Position numbers and translations under genes: made by a program. Shown here one piece after another: positions 1 to 39,498 of a stretch of 39,498 nt of DNA. Source of the DNA: a virus. How positions within the stretch are numbered: the first letter of the stretch is position 1; each line of letters begins with the position of its first letter. The stretch is from IMG/VR virus record IMGVR_UViG_3300035034_001051. One strand, 5' to 3'. The notes beneath the pieces were generated by a model. It was not told the origin of the DNA, made no database searches, and worked only from the letters and a program-made list of their open reading frames with translations.

Positions 1-127
1 CCACAAGCCGAACTGAAGGATACCTTAAAGATTTCACTTAAGTGAATACCTGTACATTGGTTTGTATACCAGTAGTCGTAGGCCTTAAGCTTTCTTTCAG
101 AGTACCTTTCTTTGTTAGTCTTTATAG
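1..127. repeat. Exact 127-bp duplicate of 39372..39498, a contig-end overlap from a circular or permuted assembly
   Basis: Base-by-base comparison: ccacaagccgaactgaagg...gttagtctttatag occurs at both window ends. The copy falls inside the DNA polymerase locus, not in the terminase-to-early-gene intergenic region where a T7-like terminal repeat belongs. Confidence 0.95.
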
Positions 128-238
128 CTTTCTTTTGGAAAAGGCTTCGCTCAGGGTTGGCATATGATTTCATCACTTAGCTTCCTCTGAATTCACCTGA
201 TTATTCGATAGACCTTGCGATCTAAAGGCACAATGTTT
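1..238 (-). ncRNA. Group I intron in the DNA polymerase gene, 5' portion (intron nt 1-238; continues at 39371 across the contig junction)
   Basis: Exon 1 ends ...GCU UGG GUG CAU at nt 239, so the last exon base is U. Intron nt 4-11, CAUUGUGC (plus 228..235), can pair with the exon-1 end GCAU (P1, with a U.G at the splice site) and with the exon-2 start GAUG (P10). A GNRA-capped hairpin UAGAUC-GCAA-GGUCUA lies at intron nt 15-30. The exon-1 frame hits a TGA 22 codons into the intron (173..175). Confidence 0.8.
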
Positions 239-1987
239 ATGCACCCAAGCCATTTGACAGACTTGGTCGATTGTATATCCAGCTTCACGAATACGTTGGT
301 TCGCTATAACCATCCACTTCTTTGCTATGATACCACCAGCTGACTGAAGGAGGTAGTTCAATGCCTTATGTTGTGTGTCACAGTATATGACCCGGCCATC
401 AAGTCCCTTAAATTTACCATGGTCTTTGCATTTCTTTTGGATAGCGTCCTTAAGGGCACCCAGACCAATCTTTTGTTCAAAGGTTTGAGTCATACTCTTA
501 GCCTTACTCAGGGTATCAACCTTGAGGATTGCCTTAAGCTTCTCTGAGCCTGCCCCATAGACCATGGCGTAAAGGTATGTCTTTGCTATGTCATCTCGGG
601 CGTCAACGTGAGTCGGGTTCTTCTTATCTCGCTTAGTTCCCTCAGGGAATATACCAAGTAAGAGTACATTTTGCCAGTGAATATCACCTGCAAGTACCGC
701 ATTGATATACTTACCCCCATCATAAGGAGCCAAGTAGTGTGCTAGTAGCCTTACTTCGATACCAGACAAGTCCGAGCCTATTTGGTAGTAACCTTTAGGA
801 GGTCCAAAGAGCTTACGACATCTCTTACCTAAATCTTTCTTTAAGTCAGAGCCCCGAGAGGCAGGAATCTGCCCAAGGTTAGGGGAGCTATGAGCCCCTC
901 TATGGGTCGTGGTACCTATATGAAAACACCTATGACGTATTGTGTCATCGTCTTCCACAAGTTTCAGCCAGGCATTTTTACCTGTGTCTACATACCCAAG
1001 GACCTTGTTAACTACTTTGAGGTCCATGATGTAGGGCATGCAGTCATACTCAAGGTGATCTATATGCTCTGCCTTAGTTGAGGGTTGTCCAGATTCCGTA
1101 AGTACTTCAGGTTTCCAGCCATACTTCTCAGTAAGTAGAGCGATTATGTCAGCATCAGTCCCAGTAAATGTCCGGAGCTTTACTTCACAATAATTGGCAC
1201 CAGGTTCTGTACCATGTTTTATATCACCTGCCTTAAGGTTACTGCGTCTCTTAGGTTCCTTGATAATCATCTGTCCTTTCTTGTAGACTGGAACATACTT
1301 ATCAGGGGACCAAGCCTTAAGCACCTGGAGGCACTCAGTCTTCTTGATCTCACAGAATTCTTTAAGGTCCTCAGCTTCGGAGCGGTTAAATGTAAATCCG
1401 AAGTCATGCTGTTCAACATCAAGTATATATGCGGACGCATGCTCAAGGACACGAGGTCCCTCTGGAACATCCTTGAGGTACTTGTTCATAAGTCTTTCAT
1501 AGAGACGAACAGTCACATCTACGTCCAACTCACAATATTCTTGCATCTCAGGAGTCCATAGTTCCCAGGCGTTATCTTGCTTACCAAACTCTCCCTTGTT
1601 CAGTCCAACTCTGTAACCAAATGCCTCCAGCTTATGGGAGCCTATAAGTTGTCCAGGAATCTTACCTTGCTTAAAGAGTCCAAAGTCAATACGCTTCAGG
1701 AGGGAGTCGTTCCCGTCACCAAAGGCCAGCTTTGATAATATCAGGGTGTCAGTAACCTTACCCTTAAAGGTAAAGCCATAGAGTTTCTTCAAGACCCTTA
1801 GGTCATACCCTTGGATATTATGACCAATGAGTTCTCGTGCCTGCTTAAGTGTATCTAAAGCCTCTTCAAGTTCCCATGGTTTCCACGAGTACTTAGAGCC
1901 TGTGTCCAGGTCTTGTGCACATATGCAGTGTAGCTGAGTCACTTCCTTTAGGAGTCCATTGGATTCCAAGTCAAACACGAGTCTCAT
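239..1987 (-). CDS. T7-like DNA polymerase (family A), exon 1 (583 codons)
   Basis: N-terminal 3'-5' exonuclease motif MRLVFDLESNGLL. PolA palm and finger motifs (DLSGIEVRLLAHY, KTYLYAMVYGAG). Ends ...CQMAWVH exactly where T7 DNAP has ...YMAWVHDEIQ. The track ORF 173..1987 runs a further 22 codons into the intron. Confidence 0.9.
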
Positions 1988-1999
1988 TATTATTCTCCG

Positions 2000-2257
2000 T
2001 TAGTAAGTTACCAGCACCTCATCTGATTTGATAAGGGCCTTCTTTTTGTTGGTAGTCTCAAGACGTACACCAGCATACTTGCCAATGCCTACCTTAAGGC
2101 CAACCTTAAGACCTCCGGACACGTTAGGACCAAGGGCCTCAATGGTTGCTTCAAGGATCATGGAGTCCTTTGATGCTCCGGTTACAATGATACCACCAGT
2201 GGTCTTCTCTTCAACCTCTTGAAGTTCTACAAGAATATATTCGTTATAGGGTTTCAT
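2000..2257 (-). CDS. GroES/Cpn10-like co-chaperonin (85 aa)
   Basis: PYNEYILVELQEVEEKTTGGIIVTGAS aligns with E. coli GroES [27 protein letters not shown]. The C-terminus LKVGLKVGIGKYAGV...SDEVLVTY resembles VKVGDIVIF..YGV...ESDILAIV. ATGA-type overlap with the upstream gene. Confidence 0.75.
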   Translation of the reverse strand: MKPYNEYILVELQEVEEKTTGGIIVTGASKDSMILEATIEALGPNVSGGLKVGLKVGIGKYAGVRLETTNKKKALIKSDEVLVTY

Positions 2258-5449: not shown

Positions 5450-5480
5450 AATAGTCTCAATGTTTTTCCTTGTGTGTTTA

Positions 5481-5508
5481 GGTGTTTCTCTAATCGTGGT
5501 CCCCATTA
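5481..5508 (-). promoter_or_regulatory. Phage RNAP promoter (family member a)
   Basis: Minus strand reads TAATGGGGACCACGATTAGAGAAACACC, near-identical to the copies at 6661, 7129 and 11843. Intergenic between endonuclease I and the amidase. Architecture resembles the T7 promoter TAATACGACTCACTATAGGGAGA. Confidence 0.8.
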
Positions 5509-5513
5509 GGGAA

Positions 5514-6634: not shown

Positions 6635-6660
6635 AAGTTTTCCTTTGGTTTTGTTGTTTA

Positions 6661-6688
6661 GGTATTTCTCTAATCGTGGTCCCCATTA
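6661..6688 (-). promoter_or_regulatory. Phage RNAP promoter (family member b)
   Basis: Minus strand reads TAATGGGGACCACGATTAGAGAAATACC. It overlaps the stop of the 86-aa gene and lies upstream of SSB. Confidence 0.8.
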
Positions 6689-6946
6689 CTTCTTGAGGTC
6701 ATTATCTACTAACATCTTAACTGCGCCATAGGCCTTACGGTCTTGGGCCTCAAAGTCTGCTGCAATATTATCTGCAATAGCCATAAGCTGAGTCAAATCT
6801 ACAATACCCTCACGGGACAAGATAGACAAAAACGTAGCATAGCTAATCACTGCCAAATCCGGCTCACTTTGAGCTTTACCAAAAGTCTCCACAATAAACT
6901 TCTGGAAGTATTGCAAGTTAACATTAGCCAATTTATTTACATTCAT
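6686..6946 (-). CDS. Hypothetical protein (86 aa), first gene after the twin promoters
   Basis: ATG start, coding strand. No recognisable motif. Confidence 0.6.
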   Translation of the reverse strand: MNVNKLANVNLQYFQKFIVETFGKAQSEPDLAVISYATFLSILSREGIVDLTQLMAIADNIAADFEAQDRKAYGAVKMLVDNDLKK

Positions 6947-6993: not shown

Positions 6994-7084
6994 ATCTTTA
7001 AGTAAAAATCTTTAAGTAGTACCTAAGGATCTTTAAGTAGTACCTAAGGATCTTTAAGTAGTACCTAAGGATCTTTAAGTAGTT
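6994..7084. repeat. Tandem array of a 21-bp unit atctttaagtagtacctaagg (3 full copies plus about 2 partial)
   Basis: Full units at 7008..7028, 7029..7049 and 7050..7070. Partial copies at 6994..7004 and 7071..7084, and a related gtctttaagtt at 7113. Non-coding, downstream of the twin phage promoters. Confidence 0.9.
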
Positions 7085-7128
7085 ATTTTTTAAATAAATT
7101 AATACTCAAAGAGTCTTTAAGTTTTTGA

Positions 7129-7156
7129 GGTATTTCTCTAATCGTGGTCCCCATTA
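7129..7156 (-). promoter_or_regulatory. Phage RNAP promoter (family member c)
   Basis: Minus strand reads TAATGGGGACCACGATTAGAGAAATACC, identical to the copy at 6661. Confidence 0.8.
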
Positions 7157-7164
7157 ATTTTACC

Positions 7165-7234
7165 TGTGGATAACTCTAGGTTTTTCTCTACTTGTGGTCC
7201 CCTTTAATTTATCTGTGGATAAGTCTGTGGATAA
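7165..7234 (-). promoter_or_regulatory. Three perfect DnaA-box 9-mers (TTATCCACA on the minus strand)
   Basis: tgtggataa on the plus strand at 7165..7173, 7214..7222 and 7226..7234. On the minus strand, one box ends 7-8 nt upstream of each twin promoter. Confidence 0.7.
7179..7206 (-). promoter_or_regulatory. Degenerate phage RNAP promoter (family member d)
   Basis: Minus strand reads TAAAGGGGACCACAAGTAGAGAAAAACC, with several mismatches to the family consensus. It lies 50 bp upstream of member c, like the T7 phi1.1A/phi1.1B pair. Confidence 0.55.
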
Positions 7235-11321: not shown

Positions 11322-11444
11322 GTAAAAAACTAAAATAATTTAAGGTATAACTAAAAGTAATTTAGTGTCCACCTCTGGAGCCCTTGAGGCCCAAGGGATT
11401 AAGGTAATAAAAATATTTTAAATTAAATTAAGTAATTACCTTGG

Positions 11445-11549
11445 GCGTACCTATAGGCGCTTATAGGAGTGTACCCGTAGGCGTACCCATGGGCGCGTAA
11501 GGCGTACATATAGGCGTACATATAGGCGTACCTATAGGCGCTTACAGAT
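11445..11549. repeat. Array of about nine 12-bp-periodic units related to GCGTAC(C/A)TATAG
   Basis: Units were read consecutively. gcgtacctatag occurs at 11445 and 11526, and gcgtacatatag at 11502 and 11514. Diverged units lie between them. The array is flanked by the near-identical 22-mers gcgtacctataggcgcttatag and gcgtacctataggcgcttacag. Confidence 0.85.
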
Positions 11550-11763: not shown

Positions 11764-11842
11764 CCTTAAAGGGTTGCTTCGAGTATCTGAGGGTAATACC
11801 AGAGGTAAGGGTATGGGTATACTTCGGGTATTCCTAAAGACA

Positions 11843-11870
11843 GGGGTTTCTCTAATAGTGGTCCCCATTA
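11843..11870 (-). promoter_or_regulatory. Phage RNAP promoter (family member e; analogous in position to T7 phiOL)
   Basis: Minus strand reads TAATGGGGACCACTATTAGAGAAACCCC. It lies in the non-coding genome-end region and points toward the early genes. Confidence 0.7.
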
Positions 11871-11875
11871 CTGGG

Positions 11876-32351: not shown

Positions 32352-33221
32352 TCAAAATAAGTTAGATCGGCCAAGCTTCTGTTCAACCATTTGGACATAA
32401 GCAGTGTCTACACGCTGACCTTGTCCTGTATACCGTGGGTCATTCATAGCAGCTACCATCTCAGCTACTGACTCAAAGGTTTCACCCGAGGTTGATTCAG
32501 GAGTTCCTTTGGCCCTTGAGCCTTCGTATCCTGTAGCTTTCTTGTAGTTACCTACGATAACCTCAAAGAGTCCTTTAGCTGTCTCAACGTCCTGGCTCTG
32601 GATTGCTGCGTTGTACGCCTTGGTGATTGCAGACTCTCCTTCTTTTGCAACCCACTGGTTGATCTTATCAAAGTTTTCCTTATCGCCTGCAATCTCATAG
32701 AAGTCTTTTGCTGTAGCTTCACTACGCATGCGGAGACCTTCCATGTAAATCTCAGTCATTTCCTTGTTAAACCCCTTAGCTTCGAGCTTCTCATAGGACT
32801 CTTTGCTCAGGTCACCTGTAGAGTAGAACTCATCATTAAATGTTTCCATATCCTCAGAGGTAATCTTAGCTCCGTCTTCAGAGTCCTTATCTTCAGAGTC
32901 CTTATCTTCAGAGTCCTTATCTTCAGAGTCCTTATCGGATTCTTCTGCATCTTCAGTGGATTCGTCTTGCTTTCCACCTTGCTTCTTTTCAAGCTCGGCA
33001 TATGCCTTGGCCATATCTTCAACGGACTTGAACTTTTCAGGCAACCACTCAGGGCGGTTAGTGTCTTTTTCCTCTTCACCCTCTTTGGCTGGCACATCTT
33101 CACCTCGCTCACGAGCTTCTGACAAGGCGATCATTTCTTTATCATGGTCACTCATGCCAATGGCGTTCGGGTCCTGATTTACATTATCGTCTTGGACTTC
33201 TTGGTTATTTACTTCTGGCAT
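32352..33221 (-). CDS. Scaffolding protein (T7 gp9-like, 289 aa)
   Basis: Highly acidic, positioned between portal and capsid. Contains a (DKDSE)x4 repeat. Confidence 0.8.
   Translation of the reverse strand: MPEVNNQEVQDDNVNQDPNAIGMSDHDKEMIALSEARERGEDVPAKEGEEEKDTNRPEWLPEKFKSVEDMAKAYAELEKKQGGKQDESTEDAEESDKDSEDKDSEDKDSEDKDSEDGAKITSEDMETFNDEFYSTGDLSKESYEKLEAKGFNKEMTEIYMEGLRMRSEATAKDFYEIAGDKENFDKINQWVAKEGESAITKAYNAAIQSQDVETAKGLFEVIVGNYKKATGYEGSRAKGTPESTSGETFESVAEMVAAMNDPRYTGQGQRVDTAYVQMVEQKLGRSNLF
32877..32936. repeat. Four exact tandem copies of the 15-bp unit ttcagagtccttatc inside the scaffold gene
   Basis: Read directly at 32877, 32892, 32907 and 32922. Encodes DKDSE x4 on the minus strand. 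Confidence 0.9.
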
Positions 33222-39061: not shown

Positions 39062-39217
39062 TTAGTGTGTGTCTGCCCAGGTAGATCCATAAGCACTTTC
39101 AGAAGCAATAGGTATCCTCATACCATAAGCCTCTCCAGCCTCAATAGAAGCTGCCTCAACGATAGCCTTGATAGGTTCAGGGTCTACGTCATTACGTACT
39201 GCAAGTTGGACTTCATC
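39062..39217 (-). CDS. T7-like DNA polymerase, exon 2 (51 codons plus stop)
   Basis: DEVQLAVRND...GMRIPIASESAYGSTWADTH parallels the T7 DNAP C-terminus HDEIQVGCRTEE...LLDTEGKMGPNWAICH. Joining it to exon 1 restores motif C as WVH-DE. Confidence 0.85.
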   Translation of the reverse strand, partial: DEVQLAVRNDVDPEPIKAIVEAASIEAGEAYGMRIPIASESAYGSTWADTH

Positions 39218-39371
39218 CTTACTGTTAACTTCCTGTGTCTCACCTTTAAATGAGTGTCGGACTATATCATCAACCACTAGGGTTGTCAGGTACTTCCACA
39301 ACTCTTCCATGAGTCATGTACTCGCTCTCGCGATAGTCTCTGCACGTTCCTTTTTCCATTCTCTTATCCAC
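39218..39371 (-). ncRNA. Group I intron in the DNA polymerase gene, 3' portion (intron nt 239-392) containing the catalytic-core R and S elements
   Basis: The minus strand reads GUGCAGAGACUA (39334..39345; classic R element GUUCAGAGACUA) and UGAUAUAGUCC (39259..39269; classic S element AAGAUAUAGUCC). GACUA/UAGUC form P7 with a bulged A. Hairpins CGC-GAGA-GCG and CAACC-CUAGU-GGUUG lie between them. The last intron nt is G (39218). Total length is 392 nt, which is not a multiple of 3. Confidence 0.8.
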
Positions 39372-39498
39372 CCACAAGCCGAACTGAAGGATACCTTAAA
39401 GATTTCACTTAAGTGAATACCTGTACATTGGTTTGTATACCAGTAGTCGTAGGCCTTAAGCTTTCTTTCAGAGTACCTTTCTTTGTTAGTCTTTATAG
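39372..39498. repeat. Second copy of the 127-bp contig-end overlap (= 1..127)
   Basis: Identical to 1..127. Confidence 0.95.

What the first reader, a model, noticed from the sequence alone, without database searches (positions are those of the whole stretch)
1..241. DNA polymerase gene is split at the WVH|DE catalytic motif; splice-site pairings fit a group I intron
The polymerase ORF stops making sense right after ...QMAWVH, where T7 has ...MAWVHDEIQ, and hits a TGA 22 codons later. The missing DEVQLAV...GSTWADTH tail lies 392 nt downstream across the contig junction (39217..39062). The intervening length is not a multiple of 3, which excludes an in-frame insertion or intein. The last exon base is U and the last intervening base is G. 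One contiguous internal guide, CAUUGUGC (228..235, minus strand), can pair with both GCAU (exon-1 end, U.G at the splice site) and GAUG (exon-2 start), which are the canonical P1 and P10. To my recollection, group I introns have been reported in DNA polymerase genes of some T7-like coliphages. This one has no homing-endonuclease ORF and would be missed by ORF callers, which would report a truncated polymerase.
Basis: partly seen in the sequence, partly recalled or inferred. Interest (0 to 1): 0.75.

Follow-up and report, generated by a model that had tools for sequence, protein, structure and literature searches.

The report
Polymerase group I intron, endonuclease deleted

Summary
The contig ends overlap by 127 nt. 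The polymerase ORF breaks after ...MAWVH. The DEVQ... tail lies 392 nt downstream across the junction, and the spliced 634-aa product aligns without a gap to T7 gp5.

The group I intron interpretation is supported:
- Both cut halves hit Rfam Intron_gpI.
- An uncut copy in a ~99.9%-identical ENA contig (L153) matches the whole model (34.4 bits, E=1.8e-6).
- Two covariance models built only from relatives each hit the window once (46 bits, E=8e-8; 62 bits, E=7e-14).
- P1, P10, P3, P4, P7.1, P8 and P9 show compensatory changes against relatives.
- The insertion site (Pol I 881|882) is the one reported for the self-splicing IA2 introns of phages PhiI and W31, and for at least 40 deposited T7-group genomes.

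One correction: the insert is not ORF-free. It carries a 76-aa remnant of an HNH homing endonuclease. L153 has the intact 153-aa gene. The window differs by a single in-frame 231-nt deletion that removes the HNH domain, and the breakpoint coincides with the contig's overlap start.

Verdict: a real feature and a new member of a known kind, of modest interest.

The parts
239..1987 (-). DNA polymerase exon 1 (582 codons, ends ...QMAWVH; last base U at 239)
   Evidence: ORF list. The spliced product aligns to T7 gp5 over residues 3-634. Pfam DNA_pol_A E=7e-28.
1..238 (-). Intron nt 1-238: P1 3' strand/guide, P2, P3 5', P4, P5, P6/P6a 5' strands, and the first part of the P6a loop with the ORF remnant
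   Evidence: Rfam Intron_gpI truncated hit 248..1, 27.6 bits, E=3e-5. Relatives-only model R1 hits 246..143, 46.1 bits, E=7.9e-8.
39218..39371 (-). Intron nt 239-392: rest of the P6a loop, P6a/P6 3' strands, P7, P7.1, GUA, P7.2, P3 3', P8, J8/7, P7 3', P9, 21-nt tail, terminal G at 39218
   Evidence: Rfam truncated hit 39498..39238, 22.6 bits, E=1.3e-3. Relatives-only model R2 hits 39347..39233, 62.4 bits, E=7.3e-14.
39372..39498 (-). Second copy of intron nt 112-238 (assembly overlap of the circularly permuted contig, not a biological repeat)
   Evidence: Exact 127-nt identity with 1..127.
39062..39217 (-). DNA polymerase exon 2 (DEVQLAV...GSTWADTH plus stop)
   Evidence: PHROG DNA polymerase C-terminal families.
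228..235 (-). Internal guide sequence CAUUGUGC. UUGUGC (233..228) pairs with exon GCAU plus intron AA (P1, U.G at the splice site). CAUU (235..232) pairs with exon-2 GAUG (P10).
   Evidence: cmscan and cmsearch alignments. P1 and P10 co-vary with the exon sequence in MQM1. U.G is invariant in 9/9 relatives.
210..223 (-). P2 hairpin AGAUC-GCAA-GGUCU
   Evidence: MFE fold. Present in MQM1, L025, L066 and L097; absent in the T7-group introns.
150..200 (-). P3 5' strand (200..195), P4 (191..185 with 156..150), P5 hairpin (181..160, holds the ORF's AUG)
137..150 (-). P6 and P6a 5' strands (GC GAAG CCUUUUCC)
   Evidence: Pairs with 39357..39344.
39344..39357 (-). P6a and P6 3' strands (GGAAAAAGG AAC GU)
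39297..39338 (-). P7 5' strand GACUA (39338..39334), P7.1 UCGC-GAGA-GCGA (39333..39322), linker GUA, P7.2 (39318..39297)
   Evidence: P7.1/P7.2 joined by GUA is the IA2 signature quoted in PMC3428280.
39239..39291 (-). P3 3' strand ACCUGA (39291..39286), P8 (39284..39272), J8/7 GAUGAUA, P7 3' strand UAGUC (39264..39260), P9 (39254..39239)
   Evidence: The motif GATGATATAGTCCGACAC is shared with more than 120 viral contigs.
1..173 (-). First 173 nt of the 76-aa ORF (AUG at 173..171, inside P5), a remnant of the HNH homing-endonuclease gene. It continues at 39371..39314 (stop TGA).
   Evidence: PHROG HNH endonuclease, positions 76-126 of 154, E=8e-8, with no HNH Pfam hit. Aligns to the C-terminal third of the MQM1, CHX131 and PC127 HEGs.
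39314..39371 (-). Last 58 nt of the 76-aa ORF remnant, overlapping P6a 3', P6 3', P7, P7.1 and the start of P7.2
127..128 (-). Breakpoint of the 231-nt (77-codon) deletion relative to the intact intron of L153. It coincides with the first base of the 127-nt terminal overlap.

Best explanation
**What it is.** The 392-nt insert is a subgroup IA2 group I intron in the T7-type (family A) DNA polymerase gene of an uncultured T7-like phage. It sits between the codons for His and Asp of the catalytic HDE motif (E. coli Pol I 881|882).

**How splicing works (inferred from the canonical group I mechanism).**
- The intron folds in the pre-mRNA.
- The guide UUGUGC pairs with exon-1 GCAU plus the first two intron bases (P1), with a U.G wobble at the splice site.
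- A free guanosine docked in P7 cleaves after U239.
- P10 (CAUU with GAUG) aligns exon 2.
- The exon-1 3'-OH attacks after the terminal G (39218). This restores CAU-GAU-GAA and yields a 634-aa polymerase.
- Unspliced message gives a 604-aa protein lacking both catalytic carboxylates.

**The endonuclease gene.** In its intact form, seen in sister genome L153, the intron carries a 153-aa HNH homing endonuclease. The ORF starts in P5, lies mostly in the P6a loop and ends in P7.2. It would drive homing into intron-less polymerase alleles. The window's copy has lost codons 16-92 (231 nt, in frame), which removes the entire HNH domain. It is therefore a splicing-competent but no longer self-mobile intron.

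**Shown versus inferred.**
- Shown: the anatomy, homology, insertion site, covariation and the deletion.
- Inferred: splicing itself, inactivity of the remnant, and the coexistence of both alleles in the sample.
For: **Exon junction.** The spliced protein aligns without a gap to T7 gp5 through MAWVH|DEVQ.

**Covariance models.**
- Rfam Intron_gpI hits both cut halves: E=3e-5 and E=1.3e-3.
- The uncut L153 intron, whose core is base-for-base identical, matches model positions 1-253 at 34.4 bits, E=1.8e-6.
- Models R1 and R2, trained only on relatives, each hit the window once, full length: 46.1 bits, E=7.9e-8 and 62.4 bits, E=7.3e-14.

**Relatives.**
- The closest DNA relative is intron 2 of the Aeromonas phage MQM1 polymerase (75% identity, E=8e-16). 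It passes Rfam's curated cutoff (61 bits vs 50).
- MQM1, Kayfunavirus CHX131, Berlinvirus PC127 and 17 unique IMG/VR introns all sit at the same H|DE boundary.

**Structure.**
- In relatives, 95% of cells are paired against 25-50% in slid-register controls. 15 of 24 and 8 of 19 pairs are compensated.
- In a hand-registered four-way comparison, 21 of 53 pairs are compensated. P1 and P10 track exon differences.
- The MFE fold of the insert recovers P1, P2, P3, P4-P6a, P7.1, P7.2, P8 and P9 in order.

**Literature.** The PhiI/W31 introns are at site 881, are subgroup IA2, carry the HNH ORF in P6a and self-splice (PMC3428280).

**Endonuclease gene.**
- The L153 ORF has an HNH_3 domain at residues 52-92, E=1.9e-13.
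- The window equals L153 minus 231 nt and is otherwise 100% identical across the intron.
Against: - No full-length hit reaches Rfam's gathering score. L153 scores 34.4 bits against a cutoff of 50. The CHX131 and PC127 introns, at the site reported for PhiI/W31, score only about 36 bits.
- The folding energy of the rejoined insert is no better than shuffles (z=-0.49).
- P4 has one A.C mismatch in the window.
- The window's P7.2 does not align to the family consensus, although it forms its own 8-bp hairpin.
- Splicing has not been observed.
- The deletion breakpoint coincides with the contig's overlap start, which raises the question of an assembly effect.
Confidence: 0.93

Rival explanations
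1. Split polymerase: the 604-aa and 82-aa ORFs are translated separately and assemble into an active enzyme without RNA splicing.
For: An ATG at 39310 opens an 82-aa ORF in frame with exon 2. Gene callers report it as a separate gene on L153.
Against: - The break falls between His and Asp of the catalytic HDE motif.
- The 30 extra N-terminal residues are encoded by the conserved ribozyme core P7.2-P9. The DDIVRH stretch is the GATGATATAGTCCGACAC motif found in more than 120 unrelated contigs.
- An in-frame start upstream of exon 2 is absent in PC127. In MQM1 and CHX131 it is only a chance ATG 6 codons upstream.
- No Shine-Dalgarno sequence is evident upstream of that ATG.
- Covariation shows selection acts on RNA pairing.
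Confidence: 0.02
2. Decayed intron or pseudogene: the element is a former intron that no longer splices, so this genome encodes a dead polymerase (a defective variant).
For: The endonuclease gene is already deleted. P4 has one A.C mismatch. The Rfam score is below the gathering cutoff.
Against: - Apart from the deletion in the P6a loop, the whole intron, including every core helix, is 100% identical to the HEG-bearing allele in an independently assembled complete-length genome.
- All of P1-P10 are formable.
- The deletion lies entirely within the peripheral P6a loop.
- The rest of the 39-kb genome has intact T7-like genes.
Confidence: 0.03
3. The 231-nt deletion is an assembly artefact. The real genome carries the full 623-nt intron, and the assembler mis-joined at the imperfect repeat ATATAAAGACCAACA / CTATAAAGACTAACA.
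For: The breakpoint (128|127) is exactly the first base of the 127-nt terminal overlap. It abuts a 9-nt exact direct repeat. No independent contig with this junction was found.
Against: - The junction is internal to the contig, with more than 110 nt of unique sequence on one side and 127 nt on the other. At k=127, reads must span it (inference from how de Bruijn assemblers work).
- A 9-nt repeat cannot confuse such a graph.
- The coincidence is what a popped bubble would leave: two alleles in the sample, with the contig starting at the former branch vertex.
- This rival does not affect the intron call.
Confidence: 0.1
4. Intein or in-frame insertion removed at the protein level.
For: None beyond the interruption of a conserved motif.
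Against: The length of 392 nt is not a multiple of 3, and a stop occurs 22 codons into the insert in the polymerase frame. There are no intein domains.
Confidence: 0

Closest known systems
[quoted passage not shown] Here they are represented by the homologous introns of Kayfunavirus CHX131, Berlinvirus PC127, K1F, 13a and at least 36 other deposited genomes.
   Same: - Same insertion site (after His881, Pol I numbering; exon UGGGUGCAU|).
- Same subgroup features: P7.1-GUA-P7.2, J8/7-P7 GAUGAUAUAGUC, and the 3' end ACAGnAAG|GAUGA.
- HNH gene in P6a whose 3' end overlaps P6-P7.2.
- HEG 51-55% identical to L153's.
   Different: - The host polymerase is only ~37% identical to any deposited phage's.
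- The window's intron has a P2 hairpin that the T7-group introns lack.
- The ORF starts in P5 rather than in P6a.
- In the window the HNH domain is deleted.
Intron 2 of the DNA polymerase gene of Aeromonas phage vB_AsaP_MQM1 (OQ628262, annotated 'HNHc ORF within a putative intron')
   Same: - Closest DNA relative (75% over 59% of the insert).
- Same H|DE site, with P2 present and near-identical P6, J6/7 and P9.
- HEG 59% identical to L153's.
- Passes the Rfam cutoff (61 bits).
   Different: - A 63-kb non-T7 phage with two introns in the gene.
- Intact 142-aa HEG with its own Shine-Dalgarno sequence and start in P6a.
- P1, P10 and P3 sequences differ through compensatory changes.
Sister allele in ENA contig ERZ27315384 k141_41315 (L153)
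   Same: Same phage: 5 substitutions in 6.1 kb. The intron is identical base for base outside the deletion.
   Different: 623-nt intron with an intact 153-aa HNH_3 endonuclease gene. The window lacks intron nt 112-342 of that version.
ORF-less site-881 introns in IMG/VR contigs L066/L120
   Same: Same insertion site and core. No endonuclease gene (only 71 nt from the J3/4-P4 motif to P7).
   Different: They have no ORF remnant at all, whereas the window retains the C-terminal 60 codons of the HEG. A different host polymerase lineage (exon 2 DEYQYQV...).
Homing-cycle model of HEG invasion, fixation, degeneration and loss (reviewed in PMC1654191)
   Same: The window/L153 pair looks like the degeneration step: a nuclease-inactivating deletion in an otherwise intact intron.
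   Different: The model is generic. Here the two stages are caught in near-identical phage genomes.

Membership tests
Group I intron (Rfam RF00028 Intron_gpI) | P1 helix formed by the 5' exon end and an internal guide, with a U.G wobble at the 5' splice site | tested here: met
   GCAU|AA pairs with UUGUGC. U.G is invariant in 9/9 relatives, and the G-C to C-G swap tracks the exon.
Group I intron (Rfam RF00028 Intron_gpI) | Terminal G at the 3' splice site and a P10 pairing with exon 2 | tested here: met
   The intron ends ...AGUAAG|. CAUU/GAUG gives 4 bp. MQM1 has CGUU/GACG, a compensated pair.
Group I intron (Rfam RF00028 Intron_gpI) | Conserved catalytic core P3-P8, with P7 flanked by J6/7 and J8/7 | tested here: met
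   Full-length cmscan alignment of the identical L153 core. R1 and R2 hits. P3, P4, P6, P7 and P8 pairs.
Group I intron (Rfam RF00028 Intron_gpI) | Score at or above Rfam's gathering threshold (50 bits) | tested here: inconclusive
   - The window cannot be scored whole because it is cut by the contig ends: 27.6 and 22.6 bits for the halves.
- L153, with a ~381-nt loop, scores 34.4 bits.
- The CHX131 and PC127 introns, at the site reported for PhiI/W31, also score only ~36 bits, while MQM1 scores 61 bits.
Group I intron (Rfam RF00028 Intron_gpI) | Guanosine-dependent self-splicing | not testable with these tools
   Needs in vitro transcription and splicing, or RNA-seq.
Subgroup IA2 | Extra hairpins P7.1 and P7.2 between P7 and P3, linked by G-U-A | tested here: met
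   GACUA-UCGCGAGAGCGA-GUA-CAUGACUC..GAGUUGUG. The criterion is as quoted in PMC3428280.
Site-881 DNA polymerase intron lineage (PhiI/W31 type) | Insertion between the codons for His881 and Asp882 (Pol I numbering) of a family A polymerase | tested here: met
Site-881 DNA polymerase intron lineage (PhiI/W31 type) | Sequence homology of intron and ORF to the T7-group introns | tested here: met
   blastn 69-74% over the ORF 3' part and P6-P7. HEG 51-59% amino-acid identity.
Site-881 DNA polymerase intron lineage (PhiI/W31 type) | Intact HNH homing-endonuclease ORF in P6a | tested here: not met
   The window has only a 76-aa remnant without the HNH motif. The feature is met in sister allele L153.
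HNH homing endonuclease (Pfam HNH_3), tested for the 76-aa ORF | HNH catalytic motif | tested here: not met
   No HNH_3 hit. Residues 16-92 of the intact protein, including HNH_3 at 52-92, are deleted.
Intein | In-frame insertion without stops, with splicing-domain motifs | tested here: not met
   392 nt is 2 mod 3, and a stop occurs after 21 codons. No intein Pfam hit.

The most novel reading that the evidence does not exclude
The in-frame deletion allele may not be mere debris. It still encodes the C-terminal, probably DNA-binding, 60 residues of the endonuclease, fused to the original N-terminus and start codon. It appears to coexist with the nuclease-positive allele in the same population, because the contig starts exactly at the breakpoint, as a popped assembly bubble would leave it. 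A nuclease-dead, site-binding remnant could compete with or modulate the active endonuclease of co-infecting phages, or it could be retained only because its 3' end is also ribozyme core. Either way, the window/L153 pair would be a natural snapshot of homing-endonuclease decay inside an essential phage gene.
Probability: 0.1. Interest if true: 0.45.

Novelty: new member of a known kind. Interest (0 to 1): 0.3.

Why it matters
**Annotation.** The polymerase of this phage should be written as a two-exon join. Gene callers split it into a truncated polymerase and small ORFs, as public calls on L153 and the deposited CHX131 and PC127 records show.

**Biology.** The finding extends the site-881 polymerase intron lineage, known from T7-group coliphages, to a distant uncultured T7-like phage. 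The lineage is common in viral metagenomes, with 17 unique copies among the loci fetched, including ORF-less ones.

**Evolution.** The matched pair of an intact and a nuclease-deleted allele in ~99.9%-identical genomes is a clean example of homing-endonuclease degeneration. It could be used to test whether the remnant or the shortened P6a loop affects splicing or homing.

None of this overturns current understanding.

Tried and rejected
**Searches that found nothing or could not be run**
- Rfam at gathering threshold on the window gave no hit, because the intron is cut by the contig ends.
- Megablast of the polymerase region against phages found nothing.
- Exact-protein look-up of the 604-aa ORF: not on record.
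- An IMG/VR scan for a junction-spanning 28-mer found nothing.
- Two JGI metagenome scans found nothing: one for the exon-1 end, which would have caught intron-less, HEG+ and deleted alleles, and one degenerate pattern for both left junctions. I therefore have no intron-less allele and no independent copy of the deletion.
- A PDB sequence search with the intact HEG found no meaningful relative.
- The original Bonocora & Shub paper is not held. Its content is cited through PMC3428280.

**Analyses that were uninformative or limited**
- Thermodynamic stability gave z=-0.49, which is uninformative.
- MAFFT on the four ORF-less cores misaligns P7.2-P3'-P8, so RNAalifold on it recovers only part of the structure. 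I replaced this with half-domain alignments of 9 and 17 relatives.
- RNAalifold on the half-domains adds spurious helices where a long-range partner is missing. These were left out of the models.
- Divergence mapping between the window and L153 showed no co-conversion signal, with too few differences to tell.
Full report
**Observation**

The window's first 127 bases are identical to its last 127. The contig is therefore a circular permutation, and its two ends are contiguous.

All genes near the ends run on the minus strand. The polymerase ORF (1987..173, 604 aa) matches T7 gp5 up to ...QMAWVH, whose last base is U at window 239. It then reads 21 unrelated codons to a TGA. The missing tail, DEVQLAV...GSTWADTH, is encoded at 39217..39062. 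The stretch between them (238..1 plus 39371..39218) is 392 nt, which is 2 mod 3, and it ends in G.

Joining 239 to 39217 gives a 634-aa protein. It aligns over its whole length to T7 DNA polymerase (E=1e-58), with MAWVHDEVQ opposite MAWVHDEIQ and no gap. It also hits Pfam DNA_pol_A. Every number in the finding is right.

**Is it a group I intron?**

Rfam at its curated threshold finds nothing in the window, but the element is cut in two by the contig ends. Searched separately with permissive settings:
- The 5' part (248..1) hits Intron_gpI at 27.6 bits, E=3e-5.
- The 3' part (39498..39238) hits at 22.6 bits, E=1.3e-3.
- No other intron-like hit exists in the window.

An exact-protein look-up of the neighbouring 205-aa gene led to ENA contig ERZ27315384 k141_41315 (L153). 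This is the same phage (5 substitutions in 6.1 kb), and it spans the junction uncut. Its intron is 623 nt. It matches the Rfam model from position 1 to 253 at 34.4 bits, E=1.8e-6.

That score is below the 50-bit gathering cutoff. However, the CHX131 and PC127 introns, which sit at the site reported for PhiI/W31, also score only about 36 bits. The closest relative, intron 2 of the Aeromonas phage MQM1 polymerase, scores 61 bits.

**Independent test**

I built two covariance models from relatives only, excluding the window and L153.
- R1 covers the 5' domain (9 sequences; P1, P4, P5).
- R2 covers the 3' domain (17 sequences; P7, P7.1, P7.2, P8, P9).

In the training alignments the canonical helices have 95% of cells paired, against 25-50% when the partner is slid by 1-3 columns. 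8 of 19 and 15 of 24 pairs carry compensatory changes.

Each model hits the window exactly once, full length and uncut:
- R1 at 246..143 (-), 46.1 bits, E=7.9e-8.
- R2 at 39347..39233 (-), 62.4 bits, E=7.3e-14.

**Anatomy** (window coordinates; the true P7 5' strand is corrected by position)

| Element | Sequence or note | Window coordinates (minus strand) |
|---|---|---|
| P1 | exon GCAU + AA with UUGUGC; U.G at the splice site | guide 233..228 |
| P10 | CAUU with exon-2 GAUG | 235..232 |
| P2 | AGAUC-GCAA-GGUCU | 223..210 |
| P3 | UCAGGU with ACCUGA | 200..195 with 39291..39286 |
| P4 / P5 | | 191..150 |
| P6 / P6a | | 150..137 with 39357..39344 |
| P7 | GACUA with UAGUC | 39338..39334 with 39264..39260 |
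| P7.1 | UCGC-GAGA-GCGA, then the GUA linker | 39333..39322 |
| P7.2 | | 39318..39297 |
| P8 | | 39284..39272 |
| P9 | | 39254..39239 |
| Terminal G | follows a 21-nt tail after P9 | 39218 |

The unconstrained MFE fold of the insert recovers all of these except P7, which is pseudoknotted with P3.

I also compared the window by hand register with MQM1, CHX131 and PC127. 53 pair positions hold up, with two non-standard cells, and 21 show changes on both sides. The P1 and P10 pairs change together with the exon sequence (GUGCAU/GAUG in the window against AUCCAU/GACG in MQM1). That count is hand-registered, so it is supportive only. The model-based tests above are the unbiased ones.

Folding energy alone says nothing (z=-0.49).

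**Same site as known introns**

MQM1, Kayfunavirus CHX131, Berlinvirus PC127 and 17 unique IMG/VR introns are all inserted after the His codon of the HDE motif, and all end ...ACAGnnnG|GAYGAR.

PMC3428280 states that the PhiI and W31 introns (Bonocora & Shub 2004) lie at Pol I site 881. It also states that they are IA2 introns with P7.1 and P7.2 joined by G-U-A, that the HNH ORF (I-TslI in W31) sits in P6a, and that they self-splice. At least 40 deposited T7-group genomes carry the PC127-type intron, usually annotated 'HNH endonuclease' or 'homing endonuclease' next to a truncated polymerase.

The window's phage is itself T7-like. It has a single-subunit RNA polymerase, T7-type helicase-primase, endonuclease I, nozzle, Gp10A capsid, portal and terminase. 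Its polymerase is at most about 37% identical to any deposited phage's and 38% to any IMG/VR contig's, and those relatives are uninterrupted.

The insert holds a 76-aa ORF (AUG at 173..171, inside P5; stop at 39316..39314).
- It matches positions 76-126 of a 154-position PHROG HNH-endonuclease family (E=8e-8).
- It has no HNH Pfam hit.
- It aligns only with the C-terminal third of the MQM1, CHX131 and PC127 endonucleases, from KTNKERY onward.

L153 explains this. Its 153-aa ORF has the same start and the same end, with an HNH_3 domain at residues 52-92 (E=1.9e-13). It is 51-59% identical to the T7-group and MQM1 endonucleases.

The window's intron equals L153's minus one 231-nt block, L153 intron nt 112-342, which is codons 16-92. 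It is otherwise identical at all 392 positions. The deletion is in frame, has no microhomology at the junction, and abuts an imperfect direct repeat (ATATAAAGACCAACA / CTATAAAGACTAACA).

The deletion lies wholly inside the P6a loop, so no ribozyme helix is touched. The window therefore carries a nuclease-deleted, presumably immobile but splicing-competent, version of the intron.

**A caution and an inference**

The breakpoint (128|127) is exactly the first base of the 127-nt terminal overlap. Chance placement is about 1 in 39,000.

The simplest reading is that the assembly graph branched there because both alleles were in the sample, and the contig starts at the former branch vertex. A mis-join is unlikely at k=127, since reads must span the junction. 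I could not find an independent contig with this junction, so I keep 'assembly artefact' at about 0.1. This does not affect the intron call.

**Rivals**

- A split polymerase made of 604-aa and 82-aa polypeptides is very unlikely.
  - The break separates His from the catalytic Asp-Glu.
  - The 82-aa ORF's first 30 residues are a translation of the conserved ribozyme core. DDIVRH is the GATGATATAGTCCGACAC motif present in more than 120 unrelated contigs.
  - An in-frame start upstream of exon 2 is not conserved among relatives.
- An intein is excluded by length and stops.
- A dead intron is unlikely, because the core is identical to that of the HEG-bearing allele in a second complete-length genome.

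**Verdict**

The feature is real and correctly interpreted. It belongs to a known lineage: IA2 introns at polymerase site 881 with an HNH gene in P6a. What is new is the host (a distant uncultured T7-like phage) and the matched intact and nuclease-deleted allele pair. I rate it a new member of a known kind, with modest interest.

Noticed in passing
window 2000..2257 (-): An 85-aa Cpn10/GroES-like co-chaperonin gene sits immediately upstream of the DNA polymerase (precomputed Pfam PF00166 on identical proteins in L151/L152). I do not recall this gene from T7-type replication modules (from memory, not checked).
   Followed up: partly
window 5473-5511, 6653-6691, 7121-7159, 7171-7209, 11835-11873: Five copies of a conserved element (minus strand: TAATGGGGACCACGATTAGAGAAA...) lie in intergenic positions. 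They are probably the phage-RNAP promoter consensus. None lies in the intron.
   Followed up: no
window 7003-7083 and 11444-11547: There is a tandem 21-nt repeat array upstream of the RNAP gene, and a cluster of GGCGTACCTATAGGCG-type repeats between the early region and the terminase gene. The latter may mark the true genome ends or concatemer junction, which would confirm that the contig ends in the polymerase are arbitrary.
   Followed up: no
window 32875-32934: An exact tandem 15-nt repeat (TCTTCAGAGTCCTTA, 4 units) lies inside the 289-aa ORF 32352..33221 (-). It would be an in-frame pentapeptide repeat in a probable scaffold protein.
   Followed up: no
L066 and L120 (IMG/VR contigs): These carry naturally ORF-less site-881 polymerase introns, with only 71 nt between the J3/4-P4 motif and P7. 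In all, 17 unique site-881 introns were found among about 120 fetched viral contigs, in diverse polymerase lineages.
   Followed up: partly
L001 1821-2072 (Aeromonas phage MQM1): The MQM1 polymerase gene holds a second, upstream group I intron scoring 75 bits in Rfam. That gene is interrupted twice.
   Followed up: no
L003 2467-3163 (Escherichia phage VTCCBPA_211, Kuravirus): Two sub-threshold Intron_gpI hits (32 and 28 bits) and a 176-aa ORF lie between a 'DNA directed DNA polymerase' CDS and downstream 'helicase' and 'DNA polymerase' CDSs. This is probably another unannotated polymerase intron related to the window's (86% identity over short stretches).
   Followed up: no
L002 157-2172 and L004 142-2124: The deposited records of CHX131 and PC127 annotate the polymerase as a single truncated CDS, with the intron ORF as 'hypothetical protein / Gp5-3' and no join to exon 2.
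   Followed up: partly
window 160..191 (-): The endonuclease ORF's AUG lies inside the P5 hairpin, and the nearest GAGG lies in the P4 5' strand. Ribozyme folding would therefore occlude translation initiation, which fits the low HEG expression discussed for PhiI/W31 in PMC3428280.
   Followed up: no
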